This document shows positions 1 to 8,960 of a stretch of DNA of 9,105 bases, in pieces. Position 1 is the first letter of the stretch, and each line of letters opens with the position of its first letter. The notes below the pieces were generated by a model, which worked only from the letters and a program-made list of their open reading frames with translations, was not told the origin of the DNA and did not search any database. Position numbers and translations under genes: made by a program. The stretch is from Naegleria gruberi (Eukaryota), in the NCBI GenBank assembly GCA_000004985.1, contig GG739047.1, one strand, 5' to 3'.

Positions 1-194
1 GNATTGACACTAAAGGAATATTTGGTGGCAATGACAAGCTCATTTCTGTCAATGTTGTGTTTCTTGATGAGTTGACCAATGAGTTTTTCACTTTCACCAT
101 CTTGATACAAATTGGCAGTATCGATAAAGTTACCACCAGCTTGAAGGTATCTTAAAAAGATTTTCTCATTTTCTTCATCAGTTGATCCAACACC
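1..194 (-). CDS. Aldo-keto reductase (AKR) family oxidoreductase, exon 2, partial (continues beyond window start)
   Basis: Minus-strand translation from 194 down to 3 is open. It reads GVGSTDEENEKIFLRYLQAGGNFIDTANLYQDGESEKLIGQLIKKHNIDRNELVIATKYSFSVN. The GxNFIDTAxxY...E..LG...RxExVIATK pattern is the classic AKR signature region. The frame joins exon 1 in phase 0. Confidence 0.75.
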
Positions 195-245
195 CTATTC
201 GAATAAACTTTCTAATAAAACAAATTCAATGAAATATTAACATAC
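195..245 (-). other. Spliceosomal intron, 51 bp (minus-strand GTATGT...AATAG)
   Basis: On the minus strand the intron begins GTATGT at 245-240 and ends AG at 196-195. Reading through gives an immediate in-frame TAA. An earlier AG at 213-212 would give an in-frame stop 20 codons later. Only the acceptor at 196-195 yields the AKR-like continuation. Confidence 0.6.
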
Positions 246-383
246 CATTGAAGTGGAGAAGACGGCATTGTGGCCAAAGTGACCAGTACCCAAAGCAATT
301 GGAGAAACTCTCAATCCGCTTGATCCCAACAACTTGTAGCTTGGAATAGTTTTGAGTTGACTTGTAGTTTGATTATCAGACAT
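246..383 (-). CDS. Aldo-keto reductase exon 1 (start codon at 381-383 on minus strand)
   Basis: 46 codons: MSDNQTTSQLKTIPSYKLLGSSGLRVSPIALGTGHFGHNAVFSTSM. The LGxSGLxVSxxxLGT..FG N-terminal pattern is typical of AKRs. There is an A-rich context upstream of the ATG (aaaataaaATGtct). Confidence 0.75.
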
Positions 384-723
384 TTTATTTTTGTTGGAAA
401 CTCATATTGACCTCTACTCTCACTATTTAAAGAGTAGCTTGGATTTCATACTCACTCACATGAAGGCGGACAGATTACTTTGTGCTTCCTTAGATTTTGT
501 AAACTTTCGTGAGGAATAATTTTGGTTGACTTCAACCAAGCGCTCGAAGAGTGATCTTTCAATTTTAATGGAAACCACTCCATGATGTTTGAATTCAAGA
601 AAATGTTGGATGATAATTTCAAATACGAAATTCCAGCAAGCACAAACTTTCCATGTTGAAGATTATTTTTGGATTTCGAATAATTTGTGCATCCTTTGTA
701 AATTAACCTTCAAACAGCATTAA

Positions 724-753
724 GAGAAAGTAAAAATAAACAATCCTGTTTTT
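724..753. repeat. Left terminal inverted repeat (gagaaagtaaaaataaacaatcctgttttt)
   Basis: It is the exact reverse complement of 2992-3021, 30/30. One more complementary base pair, 723/3022, would make it 31. Confidence 0.85.
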
Positions 754-761
754 AATTTCCG

Positions 762-777
762 GGTTAACATGTTAACC
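762..777. promoter_or_regulatory. 16-bp perfect palindrome ggttaacatgttaacc just inside the left TIR
   Basis: The sequence is self-complementary: two GTTAAC half-sites around an ACATGT core. It lies 8 bp internal to the TIR and directly abuts the TATAAAAG box. Function unknown. It could be a transposase or transcription-factor binding site. Confidence 0.4.
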
Positions 778-785
778 TATAAAAG
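778..785 (+). promoter_or_regulatory. TATA box (TATAAAAG) for the transposon ORF
   Basis: Canonical TATAAAAG lies about 110 bp upstream of the first ATG (896), on the same strand as the ORF. Confidence 0.4.
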
Positions 786-895
786 CGGCTCGAAATTACT
801 GAATTTTAAGAAATGGAACGGTAGCCTAACGGTAATGTTTCGTATCATTTAAACACTGGTCTGAAGATCGAATCTTGTCGGCATCAATAAACAAA

Positions 896-2869
896 ATGCC
901 ATCTCAAAACAATGCAAAGTGCAGAACATTTGTTTGCGTTTGTGGAAGCAAGTGTAATTCAAGTCCAGCCAAGAGTAGACATATTAAAAAGTGCAATCAT
1001 TTTGCCAAAGCAAGAGAGTTTATTAATACTTCATATCCAGAGCTCTCTTTAAATAAATTAATACAACCAAACATTATTGAACCAATCATTAATGTTGTTA
1101 ACAATGATCCTCTAGAAGCATCCTATATCAAGATGGGAAGGGCTGTTGTTAAGTTAATCCAAGAACTTCCAATTACATCACCTCTTAGAAGACCAATGGT
1201 TGCCAAGATTTGTAAAACTGTAAGACCTAAAGATGCTGTTATCATCTTGAATTTCGATGAATCTACCATTAGAAAGGCCAAGAAAGAAAGTGATGATTTT
1301 GTATTGATGATGAAATCTAAACCAAATAGCACTAGAGAGAAAATCTCAGCCACTGATATTGATAGAATCCAGAAGTATTGGTATGATTCATGTCGTGTTT
1401 CATCTACTGATGTTTTGCAAGCAAAGAGGAAGAGTGCAACATCTGAGGCTGTTATTGTTTCAAAATATTGGCAAGACTCACCTACTTGTTGGATTTTCCA
1501 ACAATATGTGGACTTCAGTGAACACAACCAAATTCCCTATCACTCCATTGGTACATTTGTCAAATACAAACCAAATAATATTAGACCATCCAAGAAGTTA
1601 GAAGGTATTTGCCCAATCTGTAAAGATTTCAAGAACAACAAGGCCAAGTATGAAGAAGCTGACCAATTATTGAAACATTTCAAGCAGGAGCCAGAGTGTG
1701 ATTGTAATCATTGTCAGCATTATAGTGAAAACTCTCAAGTTGAATTAATAGCACTTCAAAGAAAGTATGAGAAACATCTACTTCACGCTCAGCTCATCGT
1801 AGATAAATCCAAATATTGGGAGAAGGCAAAGCAAGAATTAAAAGAAGACGAGTTGATCGTTGTGATGGATTTTGCAAGTGGTTGGGAGGTAATCGATAAA
1901 GCTGTAGAAACAACCAACGAGTTTTTTGAGAAACATTACATCAAAGACATGATTGTTGTTGTGGTTAGAAAGTTAGGTGGAGAATTTCATTACACTTACT
2001 TTGATTTGATCAATGACAACCATACTTCTGATCATCACTACGTCAGAGAAGCTTGGGATTACTTATTATCGTCCGAAGAAATATTCACCAACAAATCTAA
2101 AATATTTCTTTTCTCCGATGGTGGGCCTGCTCATTACAAGATGTGTAAGACTGTTGTTATGATTGGAGAGATGACAAGAAAATATGATATTAATATTGAG
2201 TACAACTTCTATCCATCACACCATGGCAAGGGTCTTTGTGATGCACACATAGGAGTAGGTAAAAAGTATATCAAGAACAAAGTAAAGAGTAGAGAAGTAG
2301 AGGTGGAATCAATTGATGACATTGAGATGTTACTCAAGCAGTTGAAAGGAACCAAGGTTATTCGTTTGGACAATATTAAAACCTTTGAAGATTATAATGT
2401 AGAAAACATTGACAAGGTTAGATCATTTCACCAATATACTTACGAATTCGATTCAGAGAACAATATGTCATTATTATGTAAGATATCTTATGAAGAAGAA
2501 TCGTCTGTCATCAAGAATGTTAATTTAATAACTAATTCTGGAGGAAAGCTCACACCCAATCACTGTCTATTTTGCAACAAAACAGGACACAATCATAGAT
2601 TGTGCAAATTATTAGACGAACAATATAAGAAAGAAGATTTCGATCCTTCAGATCATCAATTCTTATCTCGTGAAGACGAGTACCTACCAGATGGGGAGGA
2701 GAGTGAAAGCGATGAATTATTGTATGATTCAGATAGTGATTATGATAGTATTAGTGAATCAGAGAGTGAGTTAGATAATGTTAGTACATCAAGCAACGAA
2801 CAACTTACGGTTGGAAAGAGAGCAGGAAGAGGCAATAAATTAAATGCCATCATTAGCAGTTTGATGTAA
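896..2869 (+). CDS. Transposase-like protein, 657 aa, with DDE/RNase-H-like core carrying a C(2)H motif, zinc-binding clusters and a CCHC zinc knuckle
   Basis: A 1974-nt uninterrupted ORF in AT-rich DNA. The first ATG is at 896. The ORF-track start at 875 is a TTG. Candidate catalytic residues are D in LIVVMDFASGW (1868-1870) and D in IFLFSDGGPAHYK (2117-2119), 83 aa downstream. E-AW-YLL lies between them. A CDAH, i.e. C(2)H, motif follows 40 aa after the second D (2237-2248). An acidic run, SREVEVESIDDIEM, could hold the catalytic E. An N-terminal Cys/His cluster CVCGSKCNSSPAKSRHIKKCNH runs about 920-1000. A central cluster CPIC...CDCNHCQH runs about 1610-1725. A C-terminal CX2CX4HX4C zinc knuckle CLFCNKTGHNHRLC sits at 2564-2605. 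An acidic Ser/Asp/Glu tail follows at about 2672-2780. Confidence 0.75.
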   Translation: MPSQNNAKCRTFVCVCGSKCNSSPAKSRHIKKCNHFAKAREFINTSYPELSLNKLIQPNIIEPIINVVNNDPLEASYIKMGRAVVKLIQELPITSPLRRPMVAKICKTVRPKDAVIILNFDESTIRKAKKESDDFVLMMKSKPNSTREKISATDIDRIQKYWYDSCRVSSTDVLQAKRKSATSEAVIVSKYWQDSPTCWIFQQYVDFSEHNQIPYHSIGTFVKYKPNNIRPSKKLEGICPICKDFKNNKAKYEEADQLLKHFKQEPECDCNHCQHYSENSQVELIALQRKYEKHLLHAQLIVDKSKYWEKAKQELKEDELIVVMDFASGWEVIDKAVETTNEFFEKHYIKDMIVVVVRKLGGEFHYTYFDLINDNHTSDHHYVREAWDYLLSSEEIFTNKSKIFLFSDGGPAHYKMCKTVVMIGEMTRKYDINIEYNFYPSHHGKGLCDAHIGVGKKYIKNKVKSREVEVESIDDIEMLLKQLKGTKVIRLDNIKTFEDYNVENIDKVRSFHQYTYEFDSENNMSLLCKISYEEESSVIKNVNLITNSGGKLTPNHCLFCNKTGHNHRLCKLLDEQYKKEDFDPSDHQFLSREDEYLPDGEESESDELLYDSDSDYDSISESESELDNVSTSSNEQLTVGKRAGRGNKLNAIISSLM

Positions 2870-2982
2870 ACGTATTTTTTTTTAAAATTTTATTCATTAC
2901 AAAATTTTCAACAAATTTCCGTTCCAATTCTGGTGTTTTAAGGTGTGAAGAGCTTTTTCAAACACAGCCTCATTTTCTATTA

Positions 2983-2988
2983 AATAAA
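2983..2988 (+). terminator. Putative polyadenylation signal AATAAA for the transposon ORF
   Basis: AATAAA lies 114 bp after the TAA stop (2867-2869) and 4 bp before the right TIR. A T9 run is at 2873-2881. Confidence 0.3.
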
Positions 2989-2991
2989 GTG

Positions 2992-3021
2992 AAAAACAGG
3001 ATTGTTTATTTTTACTTTCTC
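2992..3021. repeat. Right terminal inverted repeat (aaaaacaggattgtttatttttactttctc)
   Basis: It is the exact reverse complement of 724-753. Confidence 0.85.
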
Positions 3022-3165
3022 TAAATTAAATTCCATCAAACAACATTAAATATTTGGAGAATTTTGATTCAACCAATGTTGAACATGAAGTAATTTATTA
3101 TATTATTAAGAAATTAAATTATTAATATTGTAAATTAAGAAATAAAATTATTAAATATTAAAAAA

Positions 3166-4012
3166 ATGTCTCGATTACAGGAAGCATCTTTACATAAAAC
3201 GCTCGGATCACAGATTATGCAACTCTTGGAAGGAAAAACAACAAATTCATCTTCCTATTCCTTTCAAACTCATCAAGTTAATTATGTATATGGATTGGAT
3301 AAGATTAAATCAATGGTTCCGAATGTAATTATAAACAAAAAGTATGACAATCAACAACAGATGAATGGAATGAGCAAATTACAAATTGAAAAGGAAGAAG
3401 TTTTTGCCAAGCCGGAAGTGATGAACATTCTCGATGATATTTTCAATGTAAAACTTCAAGGAAAATACAATAATAATATAACAGAATATGTTGCCCAGGA
3501 GGAGAAACATTCGTTGGGAGAAAAGAAACAAGTTGATGTGGAAGTAAAGCTGTTCGATGATGAGGATGAGGAACTAGTTGATAAACCTGCAATTTATGAT
3601 GAAAATCAAAAGGAAGTGAAAATTAAATTATTTGATGATATTGATGATGACGATGATGTTCCATTCAAGGATCAACTAAAGGAGAGACAAGTGCAAAAGG
3701 AAAAGTCAGGACACAAGAGAAAGAGAAAGGAAAAGAAATTTTCCTTCTTGGAAGATTCTGATGATGAGGATGAGGAACATGATAAATCCATTGCATTGAA
3801 TGATGAGGATGAGGAAAGTGATGAGGATGAAGATTTACTCAAGAATAAGGCTGCAGAGACTCACAACTTTATCAGCTCTACAAAGGTCAAGAAATCTGAA
3901 AAACCAAACAAGGTAGCCAAGAGACATAAGGAACAAAATGAGTGGAAACAAATTCAAACATTAATGAAGGAAAAGGATGAAAAAAAGAAAGATTCTTCTA
4001 AGGATTCAACAG
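3166..4012 (+). CDS. Acidic, lysine-rich low-complexity protein (possibly nuclear), 5' portion; truncated by the assembly gap
   Basis: ATG at 3166-3168 with a strongly A-rich upstream context (aaaaaATGtct). There are 282 codons with no stop up to the gap. Composition is D/E-rich runs alternating with K/R-rich runs (KRKRKEKK). Codon-level repeats are present. There is a very AT-rich promoter-like region at 3040-3165. Confidence 0.7.
3556..3834 (+). repeat. In-frame acidic codon repeats (GATGATGAGGATGAGGAA) within the 3166 gene
   Basis: Exact 18-mer at 3556-3573 and 3760-3777, and a 17/18 copy at 3799-3816. Each encodes DDEDEE. Also a duplicated peptide motif, VEVKLFDDEDEE (about 3538-3573) and VKIKLFDDIDDDDD (about 3617-3654). 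Confidence 0.8.
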
Positions 4013-7000
4013 NNNNNNNNNNNNNNNNNNNNNNNNNNNNNNNNNNNNNNNNNNNNNNNNNNNNNNNNNNNNNNNNNNNNNNNNNNNNNNNNNNNNNNNN
4101 NNNNNNNNNNNNNNNNNNNNNNNNNNNNNNNNNNNNNNNNNNNNNNNNNNNNNNNNNNNNNNNNNNNNNNNNNNNNNNNNNNNNNNNNNNNNNNNNNNNN
4201 NNNNNNNNNNNNNNNNNNNNNNNNNNNNNNNNNNNNNNNNNNNNNNNNNNNNNNNNNNNNNNNNNNNNNNNNNNNNNNNNNNNNNNNNNNNNNNNNNNNN
4301 NNNNNNNNNNNNNNNNNNNNNNNNNNNNNNNNNNNNNNNNNNNNNNNNNNNNNNNNNNNNNNNNNNNNNNNNNNNNNNNNNNNNNNNNNNNNNNNNNNNN
4401 NNNNNNNNNNNNNNNNNNNNNNNNNNNNNNNNNNNNNNNNNNNNNNNNNNNNNNNNNNNNNNNNNNNNNNNNNNNNNNNNNNNNNNNNNNNNNNNNNNNN
4501 NNNNNNNNNNNNNNNNNNNNNNNNNNNNNNNNNNNNNNNNNNNNNNNNNNNNNNNNNNNNNNNNNNNNNNNNNNNNNNNNNNNNNNNNNNNNNNNNNNNN
4601 NNNNNNNNNNNNNNNNNNNNNNNNNNNNNNNNNNNNNNNNNNNNNNNNNNNNNNNNNNNNNNNNNNNNNNNNNNNNNNNNNNNNNNNNNNNNNNNNNNNN
4701 NNNNNNNNNNNNNNNNNNNNNNNNNNNNNNNNNNNNNNNNNNNNNNNNNNNNNNNNNNNNNNNNNNNNNNNNNNNNNNNNNNNNNNNNNNNNNNNNNNNN
4801 NNNNNNNNNNNNNNNNNNNNNNNNNNNNNNNNNNNNNNNNNNNNNNNNNNNNNNNNNNNNNNNNNNNNNNNNNNNNNNNNNNNNNNNNNNNNNNNNNNNN
4901 NNNNNNNNNNNNNNNNNNNNNNNNNNNNNNNNNNNNNNNNNNNNNNNNNNNNNNNNNNNNNNNNNNNNNNNNNNNNNNNNNNNNNNNNNNNNNNNNNNNN
5001 NNNNNNNNNNNNNNNNNNNNNNNNNNNNNNNNNNNNNNNNNNNNNNNNNNNNNNNNNNNNNNNNNNNNNNNNNNNNNNNNNNNNNNNNNNNNNNNNNNNN
5101 NNNNNNNNNNNNNNNNNNNNNNNNNNNNNNNNNNNNNNNNNNNNNNNNNNNNNNNNNNNNNNNNNNNNNNNNNNNNNNNNNNNNNNNNNNNNNNNNNNNN
5201 NNNNNNNNNNNNNNNNNNNNNNNNNNNNNNNNNNNNNNNNNNNNNNNNNNNNNNNNNNNNNNNNNNNNNNNNNNNNNNNNNNNNNNNNNNNNNNNNNNNN
5301 NNNNNNNNNNNNNNNNNNNNNNNNNNNNNNNNNNNNNNNNNNNNNNNNNNNNNNNNNNNNNNNNNNNNNNNNNNNNNNNNNNNNNNNNNNNNNNNNNNNN
5401 NNNNNNNNNNNNNNNNNNNNNNNNNNNNNNNNNNNNNNNNNNNNNNNNNNNNNNNNNNNNNNNNNNNNNNNNNNNNNNNNNNNNNNNNNNNNNNNNNNNN
5501 NNNNNNNNNNNNNNNNNNNNNNNNNNNNNNNNNNNNNNNNNNNNNNNNNNNNNNNNNNNNNNNNNNNNNNNNNNNNNNNNNNNNNNNNNNNNNNNNNNNN
5601 NNNNNNNNNNNNNNNNNNNNNNNNNNNNNNNNNNNNNNNNNNNNNNNNNNNNNNNNNNNNNNNNNNNNNNNNNNNNNNNNNNNNNNNNNNNNNNNNNNNN
5701 NNNNNNNNNNNNNNNNNNNNNNNNNNNNNNNNNNNNNNNNNNNNNNNNNNNNNNNNNNNNNNNNNNNNNNNNNNNNNNNNNNNNNNNNNNNNNNNNNNNN
5801 NNNNNNNNNNNNNNNNNNNNNNNNNNNNNNNNNNNNNNNNNNNNNNNNNNNNNNNNNNNNNNNNNNNNNNNNNNNNNNNNNNNNNNNNNNNNNNNNNNNN
5901 NNNNNNNNNNNNNNNNNNNNNNNNNNNNNNNNNNNNNNNNNNNNNNNNNNNNNNNNNNNNNNNNNNNNNNNNNNNNNNNNNNNNNNNNNNNNNNNNNNNN
6001 NNNNNNNNNNNNNNNNNNNNNNNNNNNNNNNNNNNNNNNNNNNNNNNNNNNNNNNNNNNNNNNNNNNNNNNNNNNNNNNNNNNNNNNNNNNNNNNNNNNN
6101 NNNNNNNNNNNNNNNNNNNNNNNNNNNNNNNNNNNNNNNNNNNNNNNNNNNNNNNNNNNNNNNNNNNNNNNNNNNNNNNNNNNNNNNNNNNNNNNNNNNN
6201 NNNNNNNNNNNNNNNNNNNNNNNNNNNNNNNNNNNNNNNNNNNNNNNNNNNNNNNNNNNNNNNNNNNNNNNNNNNNNNNNNNNNNNNNNNNNNNNNNNNN
6301 NNNNNNNNNNNNNNNNNNNNNNNNNNNNNNNNNNNNNNNNNNNNNNNNNNNNNNNNNNNNNNNNNNNNNNNNNNNNNNNNNNNNNNNNNNNNNNNNNNNN
6401 NNNNNNNNNNNNNNNNNNNNNNNNNNNNNNNNNNNNNNNNNNNNNNNNNNNNNNNNNNNNNNNNNNNNNNNNNNNNNNNNNNNNNNNNNNNNNNNNNNNN
6501 NNNNNNNNNNNNNNNNNNNNNNNNNNNNNNNNNNNNNNNNNNNNNNNNNNNNNNNNNNNNNNNNNNNNNNNNNNNNNNNNNNNNNNNNNNNNNNNNNNNN
6601 NNNNNNNNNNNNNNNNNNNNNNNNNNNNNNNNNNNNNNNNNNNNNNNNNNNNNNNNNNNNNNNNNNNNNNNNNNNNNNNNNNNNNNNNNNNNNNNNNNNN
6701 NNNNNNNNNNNNNNNNNNNNNNNNNNNNNNNNNNNNNNNNNNNNNNNNNNNNNNNNNNNNNNNNNNNNNNNNNNNNNNNNNNNNNNNNNNNNNNNNNNNN
6801 NNNNNNNNNNNNNNNNNNNNNNNNNNNNNNNNNNNNNNNNNNNNNNNNNNNNNNNNNNNNNNNNNNNNNNNNNNNNNNNNNNNNNNNNNNNNNNNNNNNN
6901 NNNNNNNNNNNNNNNNNNNNNNNNNNNNNNNNNNNNNNNNNNNNNNNNNNNNNNNNNNNNNNNNNNNNNNNNNNNNNNNNNNNNNNNNNNNNNNNNNNNN

Positions 7001-8041
7001 NNNNNNNNNNNNNNNNNNNNNNNNNNNNNNNNNNNNNNNNNNNNNNNNNNNNNNNNNNNNNNNNNNNNNNNNNNNNNNNNNNNNNNNNNNNNNNNNNNNN
7101 NNNNNNNNNNNNNNNNNNNNNNNNNNNNNNNNNNNNNNNNNNNNNNNNNNNNNNNNNNNNNNNNNNNNNNNNNNNNNNNNNNNNNNNNNNNNNNNNNNNN
7201 NNNNNNNNNNNNNNNNNNNNNNNNNNNNNNNNNNNNNNNNNNNNNNNNNNNNNNNNNNNNNNNNNNNNNNNNNNNNNNNNNNNNNNNNNNNNNNNNNNNN
7301 NNNNNNNNNNNNNNNNNNNNNNNNNNNNNNNNNNNNNNNNNNNNNNNNNNNNNNNNNNNNNNNNNNNNNNNNNNNNNNNNNNNNNNNNNNNNNNNNNNNN
7401 NNNNNNNNNNNNNNNNNNNNNNNNNNNNNNNNNNNNNNNNNNNNNNNNNNNNNNNNNNNNNNNNNNNNNNNNNNNNNNNNNNNNNNNNNNNNNNNNNNNN
7501 NNNNNNNNNNNNNNNNNNNNNNNNNNNNNNNNNNNNNNNNNNNNNNNNNNNNNNNNNNNNNNNNNNNNNNNNNNNNNNNNNNNNNNNNNNNNNNNNNNNN
7601 NNNNNNNNNNNNNNNNNNNNNNNNNNNNNNNNNNNNNNNNNNNNNNNNNNNNNNNNNNNNNNNNNNNNNNNNNNNNNNNNNNNNNNNNNNNNNNNNNNNN
7701 NNNNNNNNNNNNNNNNNNNNNNNNNNNNNNNNNNNNNNNNNNNNNNNNNNNNNNNNNNNNNNNNNNNNNNNNNNNNNNNNNNNNNNNNNNNNNNNNNNNN
7801 NNNNNNNNNNNNNNNNNNNNNNNNNNNNNNNNNNNNNNNNNNNNNNNNNNNNNNNNNNNNNNNNNNNNNNNNNNNNNNNNNNNNNNNNNNNNNNNNNNNN
7901 NNNNNNNNNNNNNNNNNNNNNNNNNNNNNNNNNNNNNNNNNNNNNNNNNNNNNNNNNNNNNNNNNNNNNNNNNNNNNNNNNNNNNNNNNNNNNNNNNNNN
8001 NNNNNNNNNNNNNNNNNNNNNNNNNNNNNNNNNNNNNNNNN
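4013..8041. other. Assembly gap (4,029 N)
   Basis: Contiguous run of n. The ORFs at 3166..8076, 3977..8047 and 4006..8187(-) across it are X-translation artefacts. Confidence 1.
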
Positions 8042-8318: not shown

Positions 8319-8960
8319 ATGGAGTTGTTAGTGGTAACTCTACTGAGAATAGCCCTCAAATTGGGGTTAATAGTAATTGATTTTGTATCATGCCTCTTTT
8401 ATTCACCAGCATTATTATTACTCACATTGGCATTGGATATTTCACATAATTATGGAAGTAGAAAGCGTTTATACTCAGACTTTAATAATGGTGTATTGTT
8501 GATCTATTATTTAATGTTTCCAGTCATGTATCCGATCGTTACACTTGCAGTACCATCCATTGTTTTGTATCCAATATTTGCATTCTATGAAACTTATGCT
8601 CTTTACATTTCGGAAAATTCTACAGGTTTTTGGAGTATGATGATTTCATTGACAGTCACCTTCTTGTCCATGTTGGCCATGTCAATTAGAGCTTTCATTG
8701 TGTGGGATGACAAGATTGGAAGAAGCTATCGTAATAGTAATGTAGATATCTTCTCTGATTGGGGTGAATTCCAAATACGTTTGCCTAAACATTTATTTTC
8801 TATTGTAATGTTGGTAAATCCTGTCAGATTCATATACTTTTTAAAACAAGGATACAAATCTCAAACATTATCTGCATTTACTGATTTAATGGCTGATTAT
8901 ACTGTTAAAGCAGTGTTAGATTATTTATGCTTGCCATTTTGTGTATGTATTATTGTTTGA
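8319..8960 (+). CDS. Hypothetical multi-pass membrane protein (213 aa as a single ORF; may continue through a downstream intron)
   Basis: ATG at 8319. It has about 6 hydrophobic helix-length segments, for example LLVVTLLRIALKLGLIVIDFVSCLF, GVLLIYYLMFPVMYPIVTLAV and FWSMMISLTVTFLSMLAMSIRAFIVW. No homology is recognisable by eye. Coding status rests on ORF length in AT-rich DNA. Confidence 0.45.
   Translation: MELLVVTLLRIALKLGLIVIDFVSCLFYSPALLLLTLALDISHNYGSRKRLYSDFNNGVLLIYYLMFPVMYPIVTLAVPSIVLYPIFAFYETYALYISENSTGFWSMMISLTVTFLSMLAMSIRAFIVWDDKIGRSYRNSNVDIFSDWGEFQIRLPKHLFSIVMLVNPVRFIYFLKQGYKSQTLSAFTDLMADYTVKAVLDYLCLPFCVCIIV

What the first reader, a model, noticed from the sequence alone, without database searches (positions are those of the whole stretch)
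724..3021. Compact, apparently intact TIR DNA transposon inserted between two host genes
A 2,298-bp unit has 30/30 identical terminal inverted repeats around a single 657-aa ORF with no stop or frameshift. It carries its own TATA box and AATAAA. Perfect TIR identity together with an intact ORF suggests a recently active autonomous element. It sits 341 bp upstream of the start codon of the minus-strand AKR gene and 144 bp upstream of the start codon of the plus-strand acidic-protein gene, inside a bidirectional promoter region. I cannot assign it to a known family by eye. It could be a new family or a divergent member of a CxxH-containing DDE superfamily.
Basis: partly seen in the sequence, partly recalled or inferred. 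Interest (0 to 1): 0.75.

Follow-up and report, generated by a model that had tools for sequence, protein, structure and literature searches.

The report
Intact Sola2 DNA transposon in Naegleria
The feature is real: a compact, apparently intact cut-and-paste DNA transposon of the already known Sola2 group, sitting between two Naegleria gruberi genes, so it is an ordinary mobile element with a few unusual details.

Summary
Window 724-3021 is a 2,298-bp unit with 30/30 identical terminal inverted repeats (TIRs), one uninterrupted 657-aa ORF (896-2869) and a TAA direct repeat on each side. The window is a whole 9.1-kb Naegleria gruberi scaffold.

The element is mobile. Two homologous copies with the same TIR lie at unrelated loci in Willaertia magna. 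One is frameshifted and full length. The other is a 1,066-bp internal-deletion derivative. Both are flanked by TAA.

The protein has no Pfam or PDB sequence match. It has 827 distant homologues. Its family profile hits the catalytic core of the Repbase reference element Sola2-1_HM end to end (98.5 bits). Direct BLASTP gives E=1e-11. Sola1, Sola3 and Zator cores score at or near background.

One departure from the literature: Sola2 is described with 4-bp AT-rich target-site duplications, whereas all three insertions here show 3-bp TAA.

Verdict: a new member of a known kind, of modest interest.

The parts
721..723 (+). 5' copy of the target-site duplication, TAA
   Evidence: The same TAA flanks both ends in the window and in both W. 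magna copies.
724..753 (+). 5' terminal inverted repeat, GAGAAAGTAAAAATAAACAATCCTGTTTTT
   Evidence: It is 30/30 complementary to 2992-3021. It matches the W. magna TIRs at 28/30 (93%).
754..761 (+). Subterminal motif AATTTCCG, copy 1
   Evidence: There are only two occurrences in the window, both on the + strand and both subterminal (0.10 expected by chance). The motif is conserved in the W. magna copy.
762..777 (.). 16-bp perfect palindrome GGTTAACATGTTAACC, just upstream of the TATA box
   Evidence: It is unique in the window, with 0 expected by chance. Both W. magna copies have GGTTTACATGTAAACC, so palindromy is kept by a paired change.
778..783 (+). TATAAA, the putative element promoter
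   Evidence: Read directly from the sequence. It is conserved in both W. magna copies. Function is inferred.
896..2869 (+). Sola2-type DDD transposase ORF, 657 aa, intact
   Evidence: establish the ORF. The family profile hits the Sola2-1_HM core at 98.5 bits, and BLASTP gives E=1e-11. dN/dS against the W. magna copy is 0.08.
935..994 (+). N-terminal C2HC-type zinc-finger candidate (C14, C16, H29, C33)
   Evidence: The model shows a beta-hairpin followed by a helix. C14 and C16 are conserved in the subset of homologues that have this region. It is also conserved in the paralogue P0002 and in P0039. Metal binding is inferred.
1109..1285 (+). Helix-turn-helix region (aa 72-130), the probable TIR-binding domain
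   Evidence: The model has four helices with pLDDT of about 85-95. There is weak profile similarity to sigma-factor region 4. Two family members hit HTH_23. The DNA-binding role is inferred.
1610..1786 (+). Conserved C239-x2-C242 ... H297 module preceding the catalytic core
   Evidence: C239 is 99% conserved, C242 97% and H297 100% across homologues.
1850..2287 (+). RNase H-like catalytic core (aa 319-464). The D325 codon is 1868-1870, D408 is 2117-2119 and D449 is 2240-2242.
2564..2605 (+). C-terminal CX2CX4HX4C zinc-knuckle motif (aa 557-570)
   Evidence: The motif is read directly from the sequence. It is conserved in P0002 and in the W. magna copy but not across the wider family.
2914..2921 (+). 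Subterminal motif AATTTCCG, copy 2, in a conserved stretch of the 3' UTR
2983..2988 (+). AATAAA; W. magna has ATTAAA at the aligned position
   Evidence: Use as a poly(A) signal is untested.
2992..3021 (-). 3' terminal inverted repeat
3022..3024 (+). 3' copy of the target-site duplication, TAA
1..384 (-). Flanking host gene: 5' part of an aldo/keto reductase, two exons, cut by the scaffold end. Not part of the element.
3166..4012 (+). Flanking host ORF: an acidic, low-complexity protein that runs into the N gap. Not part of the element.
   Evidence: It has no Pfam hit.

Best explanation
Window 724-3021 is a full-length, autonomous-type cut-and-paste DNA transposon of the Sola2 group (Sola superfamily). 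It is inserted at a TAA in the intergenic region between an aldo/keto reductase gene and an acidic-protein gene of Naegleria gruberi.

Its single gene encodes a 657-aa transposase with these parts:
- An N-terminal zinc finger and a helix-turn-helix, which presumably recognise the 30-bp TIRs and subterminal motifs.
- A conserved CxxC...H module.
- A compact RNase H-like catalytic core with the triad D325, D408 and D449 (DD41D-like spacing, no insertion domain).
- A beta-rich C-terminal domain, a CCHC knuckle and an acidic tail.

**Inferred mechanism.** This follows the known chemistry of DDE/D transposases. The protein synapses the two TIRs, excises the element by metal-dependent hydrolysis and transesterification, and joins the 3'-OH ends to staggered positions around a TAA. 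Gap repair then produces the TAA duplication.

**What is shown.** Anatomy, family membership, fold, residue conservation, presence at non-syntenic sites in two genera, a deletion derivative, and long-term purifying selection.

**What is inferred.** Current activity, which domain binds which DNA, and the 3-bp stagger.
For: **Structure of the unit.**
- The TIRs are 30/30 identical and the ORF is intact.
- The element is flanked by TAA/TAA.

**Mobility.**
- W. magna locus L001 5627-7882 holds a 2,256-bp homologue. It has the same TIR (28/30), 73.5% nucleotide identity over the body, and TAA on both sides.
- W. magna locus L008 5833-6898 holds a 1,066-bp copy with both TIRs. It lacks aa 140-550 and is also flanked by TAA.
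- The flanks of the three loci share no similarity.

**Selection.** dN/dS between the N. gruberi ORF and the W. magna copy is 0.08 over 536 codons, with dS saturated.

**Family.**
- An exhaustive search found 827 homologues. None of the 47 scanned carries a transposase Pfam domain.
- The 150-sequence profile hits the Sola2-1_HM core from Majorek et al. 2014 (PMC3985635, supplementary file 5). The score is 98.5 bits and the match is end to end.
- The same profile scores Sola1 at 14 bits and Sola3 at 3.5 bits, and finds no Zator hit.
- Direct BLASTP of the window protein against Sola2-1_HM gives E=1e-11 over 129 aa with one gap.

**Fold.**
- The AF2 model has pLDDT 80, with the core above 90.
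- Foldseek agrees.

**Triad.** D325, D408 and D449 are 98-100% conserved and sit at the canonical positions: end of b1, after b4, and start of the helix after b5. No Glu downstream is conserved.
Against: - The literature available here describes Sola2 as making 4-bp AT-rich duplications (PMC3627910, citing Bao et al. 2009). All three insertions here share only a 3-bp TAA. A 4-bp reading (TAAG) fits two of the three.
- Copy number in N. gruberi could not be measured. Only one identical ORF and one 63%-identical paralogue are in the protein collection.
- Both W. magna copies are defective.
- No transcription or transposition data were available.
Confidence: 0.9

Rival explanations
1. It is a domesticated transposase gene. 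Under this reading it is a host gene derived from a transposon, kept for a cellular function, and the TIRs are relics.
For: There is strong purifying selection (dN/dS 0.08). It appears to be single copy on this scaffold and has an intact ORF. A divergent paralogue exists in the same genome.
Against: - The 30/30 TIRs and the TAA duplication are preserved.
- Homologues sit at unrelated loci in W. magna, with no synteny.
- Those homologues are decaying: frameshifts in L001, and an internal deletion plus a stop codon in L008. Decay is not expected of a host gene.
- Purifying selection across species is equally expected for a transposase that must work to propagate.
Confidence: 0.04
2. It belongs to a C/DxxH superfamily (Kolobok, hAT, MULE, P or Dada). 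Kolobok is the most likely of these, because it has been reported from Naegleria and has 5'-RR..YY-3' termini and a TTAA target.
For: - A C448-D449-A-H451 motif follows the second Asp.
- The termini are GA...TC.
- The 5' junction reads TTAA in two of the three copies.
- Kolobok is listed as present in Naegleria (PMC9587614).
Against: - The profile matches the Sola2 reference core end to end at 98.5 bits.
- D449 inside the motif is 100% conserved, and no Glu follows it. The motif therefore contains the third catalytic residue, rather than lying between D2 and E.
- No 3' junction reads TTAA, and the L008 5' junction reads CTAA.
- There are no Pfam hits to the hAT, MULE or P families.
- The core has no insertion domain.
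- A Kolobok reference transposase was not available, so no direct negative test was run.
Confidence: 0.02
3. It is a PIF/Harbinger or Zator element. The argument rests on the 3-bp (TAA) target-site duplication.
For: All three insertions have a TAA/TAA duplication. From prior knowledge, TAA/TTA is the classic Harbinger target, and Zator makes 3-bp duplications.
Against: - There is no hit to DDE_Tnp_4 or Plant_tran.
- The element has a single ORF, with no second Myb-like gene.
- The Zator-1_HM core is not hit at all by the family profile.
- Membership in Sola2 is positively demonstrated.
Confidence: 0.01

Closest known systems
Sola2 group of the Sola superfamily (reference Sola2-1_HM from Hydra; Bao et al. 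2009, as used in Majorek et al. 2014, PMC3985635)
   Same: - The transposase core is homologous: 98.5 bits by profile, and BLASTP E=1e-11.
- The shared motifs are DFAE/DFAS, xSDDxxHD, LF(T/S)DG..(Q/H)YK and NFFxSHG.
- It has a DDD-type triad.
- It has TIRs.
- It has no Pfam model.
   Different: - The duplication here is TAA (3 bp) in 3 of 3 insertions, against the 4 bp reported for Sola2.
- The element is very compact, at 2.3 kb with one gene.
- Whether a Naegleria Sola2 family is already in Repbase or Dfam could not be checked.
Sola2-Fanzor chimeric elements of Dictyostelium fasciculatum and Polysphondylium pallidum (PMC3627910)
   Same: They are Sola2 transposons of an AT-rich protist. They have short TIRs and an AT-rich, sequence-specific target.
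   Different: - Those elements are 7 kb or longer and carry a Fanzor1 (TnpB-like) gene.
- Their TIRs are 12-21 bp and imperfect.
- They make 4-bp AWWT duplications.
- The Naegleria element has no second gene and has perfect 30-bp TIRs.
Mos1/mariner and retroviral integrase catalytic domains
   Different: - Sequence identity is only 7-12%.
- There is no hit to Tc1/mariner Pfam models.
- The N- and C-terminal domains are different.
- The target is TAA rather than TA.
PIF/Harbinger
   Same: It makes a 3-bp TAA target-site duplication.
   Different: The transposase family is unrelated (DDE_Tnp_4). Harbinger needs a second Myb-like protein, and none is present here.
Kolobok
   Same: It is reported in Naegleria, has R-R...Y-Y termini, and has a target containing TAA.
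   Different: Kolobok makes TTAA 4-bp duplications and has a C/DxxH motif between D2 and E. Neither fits this element.

Membership tests
Sola2 (Sola superfamily) | Transposase significantly similar to reference Sola2 transposases | tested here: met
   The A3 profile against the Sola2-1_HM core scores 98.5 bits and covers the whole core. Sola1 scores 14 bits, Sola3 scores 3.5 bits and Zator gives nothing. Direct BLASTP gives E=1e-11.
Sola2 (Sola superfamily) | DDD catalytic triad on an RNase H-like fold | tested here: met
Sola2 (Sola superfamily) | Terminal inverted repeats bounding the element | tested here: met
   The TIRs are 30/30 in the window. The same TIR is present in two W. magna copies.
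Sola2 (Sola superfamily) | 4-bp target-site duplication (AT-rich), as stated in PMC3627910 citing Bao et al. 2009 | tested here: not met
   The junctions are:
- N. gruberi: T-TAA[...]TAA-A
- W. magna copy 1: T-TAA[...]TAA-G
- W. magna copy 2: C-TAA[...]TAA-G

Only the 3-bp TAA is duplicated in all three. A 4-bp TAAG reading, counting the terminal G as target, fits the two W. magna copies but not the window copy. With n=3, this is best treated as a lineage-specific deviation that needs more copies.
Autonomous, active transposon | Multiple copies, insertion polymorphism or an empty site in the host genome | not testable with these tools
   The N. gruberi assembly is not searchable here. There is only one identical ORF and one 63%-identical paralogue in the protein collection.
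Kolobok | TTAA 4-bp duplication | tested here: not met
   The 3' junctions read TAAA, TAAG and TAAG. One 5' junction reads CTAA.
Kolobok / hAT / MULE / P / Dada | C/DxxH motif located between the second Asp and a catalytic Glu | tested here: not met
   The CDxH here contains the invariant third Asp. No conserved Glu follows it. There are no Pfam hits to hAT, MULE or P.
PIF/Harbinger | DDE_Tnp_4 / Plant_tran transposase plus a second Myb-like ORF | tested here: not met
   There is no Pfam hit. The element has a single ORF.
Zator | Transposase related to Zator / bacterial TP36 | tested here: not met
   The Zator-1_HM core is not hit by the family profile. There is no Pfam hit.

The most novel reading that the evidence does not exclude
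The heterolobosean Sola2 lineage may have changed its integration geometry. It would make a strictly TAA-specific, orientation-fixed 3-bp duplication, instead of the 4-bp duplication described for Sola2.

The N. gruberi copy may also be a currently active autonomous element. Its promoter-proximal 16-bp palindrome is kept palindromic by a paired substitution between genera, and could be a functional operator for the transposase or a host factor.

If so, this would be a compact native transposon usable for insertional mutagenesis or transgenesis in Naegleria, which lacks genetic tools.
Probability: 0.3. Interest if true: 0.45.

Novelty: new member of a known kind. Interest (0 to 1): 0.3.

Why it matters
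- It turns two 'predicted/hypothetical protein' gene models of N. gruberi into annotated transposase genes.
- It exposes a mis-fused 1,135-aa W. magna model, in which a transposase pseudogene is joined to a DUF4116 gene.
- It shows that a large, widespread transposase family (827 detectable homologues) still has no Pfam model. Such genes are therefore routinely left unannotated.
- It gives residue-level and structural support for the DDD core of Sola2. No experimental structure or activity assay for Sola2 was found here.
- It flags a possible 3-bp TAA integration variant.
- An intact 2.3-kb element is a reasonable candidate for a transposition assay, in a protist group without genetic tools.
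- It does not change any general concept of transposon biology.

Tried and rejected
- Pfam on the protein gave nothing relevant. PDB sequence searches with the single protein and with the profile gave nothing significant.
- tRNA and Rfam scans of 1-4010 found nothing, including the tRNA-like-looking stretch at 811-885.
- The first AlphaFold run used only 3 sequences and was unusable (pLDDT 42). It was redone with 150 sequences.
- The afdb50 fold library was unavailable.
- Word-indexed protein searches with profiles added almost nothing.
- Looking up the N. gruberi proteins P0001 and P0002 to fetch other loci or an empty allele failed, because the assembly is not indexed.
- A metagenome scan with the TIR consensus gave two hits. 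Both lie inside a bacterial membrane-protein gene and are chance matches.
- Contigs of more distant homologues (L002, L005-L007) showed no convincing TIRs.
- L009 has a 24-nt, 96% complementary TIR pair around a related ORF but no readable duplication.
- Supplementary alignments of dictyostelid Sola2 elements were unreadable as stored.
- The original Sola paper (Bao et al. 2009) and Yuan & Wessler 2011 are not held. The Sola2 TSD length is therefore taken second-hand from PMC3627910.
- The TTAA (Kolobok/piggyBac-like) and TA readings of the junctions were considered and rejected on the three junction sequences.
Full report
**Observation**

The window is an entire 9,105-bp unplaced scaffold of Naegleria gruberi. 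The 657-aa ORF product is 100% identical to a deposited 'predicted protein' whose longest contig is 9,105 bp. Positions 4013-8041 are Ns.

The repeat finder recovers the reported inverted repeat (arms 719-758 and 2987-3026, 93%). A base-by-base comparison shows that 724-753 and 2992-3021 are 30/30 complementary and diverge at position 31.

The ORF at 896-2869 is uninterrupted. TATAAA (778-783) and AATAAA (2983-2988) are present.

The minus-strand flanking gene is an aldo/keto reductase (two exons; PF00248, E=1.2e-15). The plus-strand ORF from 3166 is acidic and low in complexity, with no Pfam hit.

I add that a direct TAA repeat abuts each TIR, at 721-723 and 3022-3024.

**Is it mobile?**

The word-indexed protein search found only three close relatives:
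- the window protein itself;
- an N. gruberi paralogue (NAEGRDRAFT_78435, 63% identity);
- a 1,135-aa Willaertia magna model.

The W. magna locus (L001) contains a 2,256-bp homologue at 5627-7882.
- It has the same TIR (28/30) and 73.5% nucleotide identity across the body.
- Its reading frame is broken by at least two frameshifts and its N-terminal coding part is degraded.
- The annotators bridged these defects and fused it to a downstream DUF4116 gene.

A second W. magna locus (L008) was reached through a 90-aa fragment protein found by the exhaustive search.
- It holds a 1,066-bp copy at 5833-6898 with both TIRs.
- It lacks aa 140-550 and has a premature stop. This is a classic internal-deletion derivative.

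The flanking genes and flanking DNA of the three loci are unrelated. The same element therefore sits at three different genomic addresses in two genera, each time bounded by the same TIR and by TAA on both sides.

Between the N. gruberi ORF and the W. magna full-length copy, dN/dS is 0.08 over 536 codons, with dS saturated. The transposase has been under long-term purifying selection. This is expected for a propagating element, and it does not by itself distinguish that case from domestication. The TIRs, the duplications, the absence of synteny and the decaying copies argue against domestication.

**What family?**

Pfam, PDB sequence, tRNA and Rfam searches on the protein and the region were negative. 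An exhaustive phmmer search of 1.84 billion representatives gave 827 homologues at E<=1e-3. They include proteins from Phalansterium, Pompholyxophrys and Lithocolla and from many metagenomes. None of the 47 scanned homologues has a transposase Pfam domain.

[quoted passage not shown] It also states that Kolobok occurs in Naegleria (PMC9587614).

The supplementary alignment of Majorek et al. 2014 (PMC3985635) contains the RNase H-like cores of the Repbase references Sola1-1_AP, Sola2-1_HM, Sola3-1_HM and Zator-1_HM. I built an HMM from my 150-sequence alignment and searched these cores:

| Reference core | Result |
|---|---|
| Sola2-1_HM | 98.5 bits, end to end, conditional E=9e-32 |
| Sola1-1_AP | 14 bits |
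| Sola3-1_HM | 3.5 bits |
| Zator-1_HM | no hit |

BLASTP of the window protein alone against Sola2-1_HM aligns 129 aa with one gap (E=1e-11). The shared motifs are visible by eye:

| Window protein | Sola2-1_HM |
|---|---|
| DFAS | DFAE |
| INDNHTSDHHYV | ISDDITHDVTYV |
| LFSDGGPAHYK | LFTDGCAGQYK |
| YNFYPSHHG | WNFFATSHG |

The element is a Sola2 transposon.

**Fold and catalytic residues**

With the deep alignment, AlphaFold gives mean pLDDT 80, with above 90 across aa 190-500. The catalytic region has the canonical RNase H order:

| Element | Residues |
|---|---|
| b1 | 319-326 |
| b2 | 347-360 |
| b3 | 363-373 |
| a1 | 380-393 |
| b4 | 402-407 |
| a2 | 417-429 |
| b5 | 433-438 |
| a4 | 447-464 |

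Foldseek returns the same classes.

Conservation in the family alignment:
- D325 (end of b1) is 98% conserved.
- D408 (just after b4) and D449 (start of a4) are 100% conserved.
- No acidic residue downstream is conserved.

The triad is therefore D-83-D-41-D, which agrees with the DDD description of Sola that I recall from Bao et al. 2009; that paper is not held here.

Other near-invariant residues are C239, C242, H297, H413 and H443. They suggest a structural metal site next to the core. This is an inference.

Upstream of the core lie a C2HC-like finger (aa 14-33) and a four-helix HTH region (aa 72-130). The HTH region shows weak sigma-region-4-like similarity, and two relatives hit HTH_23. 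Downstream lie a beta-rich domain, a CX2CX4HX4C knuckle (aa 557-570) and a disordered acidic tail.

**Target-site duplication**

The three junctions read as follows:

| Copy | Junction |
|---|---|
| N. gruberi | ...GCAT-TAA[GAGAAAG...CTTTCTC]TAA-ATTA... |
| W. magna copy 1 | ...TGCT-TAA[...]TAA-GTAC... |
| W. magna copy 2 | ...AAAC-TAA[...]TAA-GTGT... |

- TAA is the only duplication common to all three.
- TTAA is excluded, because the third copy has CTAA at its 5' side and none has TTAA at its 3' side.
- A 4-bp TAAG reading is possible for the two W. magna copies if the terminal G is assigned to the target. It fails for the window copy.
- All three have TAA (not TTA) on the strand of the transposase gene.

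The one accessible statement on Sola2 says that 4-bp AT-rich duplications (AWWT) are the family feature (PMC3627910). This lineage therefore appears to deviate, but three junctions are too few to be sure.

**Conserved non-coding features**

Beyond the TIR, the first roughly 60 nt and the last roughly 110 nt are conserved between the genera, while the 5' UTR is not.
- A perfect 16-bp palindrome, GGTTAACATGTTAACC (762-777), lies between the TIR and the TATA box and is unique in the window.
- Both W. magna copies carry GGTTTACATGTAAACC, which is still a perfect palindrome, produced by a paired A>T / T>A change.
- AATTTCCG occurs exactly twice in the window, at 754-761 and 2914-2921. Both copies are on the + strand and subterminal, and the motif is conserved in W. 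magna.

These are plausible transposase or host-factor binding sites. No test was possible.

**How it most likely works**

The chemistry follows the general DDE/D paradigm established for Mos1, Hermes and the retroviral integrases.
1. The element's own promoter (palindrome plus TATA) drives the single gene.
2. The transposase binds the TIRs and subterminal motifs through its N-terminal finger and HTH.
3. It pairs the ends and cuts them out with the Mg2+-bound DDD site.
4. It inserts the 3'-OH ends at positions staggered by three nucleotides around a TAA.
5. Repair of the gaps duplicates the TAA.
6. Internal-deletion copies such as the one in L008 would be mobilised in trans.

The domain roles, the size of the stagger and present-day activity are inferences.

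**Comparison and novelty**

This is a member of a known group, Sola2.

What is not documented in the literature I could search:
- Sola2 in Naegleria or Willaertia. No paper holds both 'Naegleria' and 'Sola2'.
- The TAA 3-bp duplication.
- The conserved palindrome.

I could not consult Repbase or Dfam, so the family may already be deposited there.

Interest is modest. The result is a sound annotation, a structural and residue-level description of an experimentally uncharacterised transposase group, and a candidate for an activity assay in an organism lacking genetic tools.

Noticed in passing
window 762-777; L001 5665-5680; L008 5871-5886: A perfect 16-bp palindrome, GGTTAACATGTTAACC, lies between the 5' TIR and the TATA box. 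In both W. magna copies it is GGTTTACATGTAAACC, so palindromy is preserved by a paired substitution. It is a candidate operator or protein-dimer binding site.
   Followed up: partly
window 754-761 and 2914-2921: AATTTCCG occurs only twice in the window. Both copies are subterminal in the element and in direct (not inverted) orientation, and the motif is conserved in W. magna.
   Followed up: partly
L001 6001-10079 (W. magna JBEGDK010000149.1): The annotated 1,135-aa W. magna protein ABK040_005658 is an artefactual fusion. It joins a frameshifted Sola2 transposase pseudogene to a downstream DUF4116 gene, with 'introns' placed over the frameshifts.
   Followed up: partly
L008 5833-6898 (W. magna JBEGDK010000103.1): A 1,066-bp non-autonomous internal-deletion derivative of the same element lies between a 2OG-Fe(II) oxygenase gene and a WD40 gene. 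Its 90-aa annotated ORF (ABK040_014070) is the truncated N-terminus of the transposase.
   Followed up: yes
window 4013-8041: A 4,029-nt run of N (assembly gap) makes up 44% of this small unplaced scaffold. A small separate scaffold could be an alternative haplotype that differs by the insertion. This could not be tested.
   Followed up: no
window 811-885: A stretch in the element's 5' UTR looks tRNA-like by eye (GGTAGCCTAACGGTAA ... GATCGAATCTTGTC). ARAGORN and Rfam find nothing, and it is not conserved in W. magna.
   Followed up: yes
window 8319-8960: A 213-aa hydrophobic ORF lies after the gap. It looks like a multi-pass membrane protein and has no Pfam hit.
   Followed up: partly
L002 1-5352 (Logan SRR28285697 contig): A 29%-identical Sola2-like ORF sits among short ORFs, one with a weak HNH_3 hit, and there are no TIRs. 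The context may be viral or virus-like. Sola2 and Fanzor elements have been reported in large dsDNA viruses.
   Followed up: no
L009 2940-5593 (JGI 3300037860 contig): A related ORF (32% identity) is bounded by a 24-nt, 96% complementary TIR pair (CGGGATTGACCACATCCACA...). This gives a 2.65-kb element of similar compact size. No clear target duplication is visible, and a second CGGGATT start lies 9 bp beyond the 3' end.
   Followed up: partly
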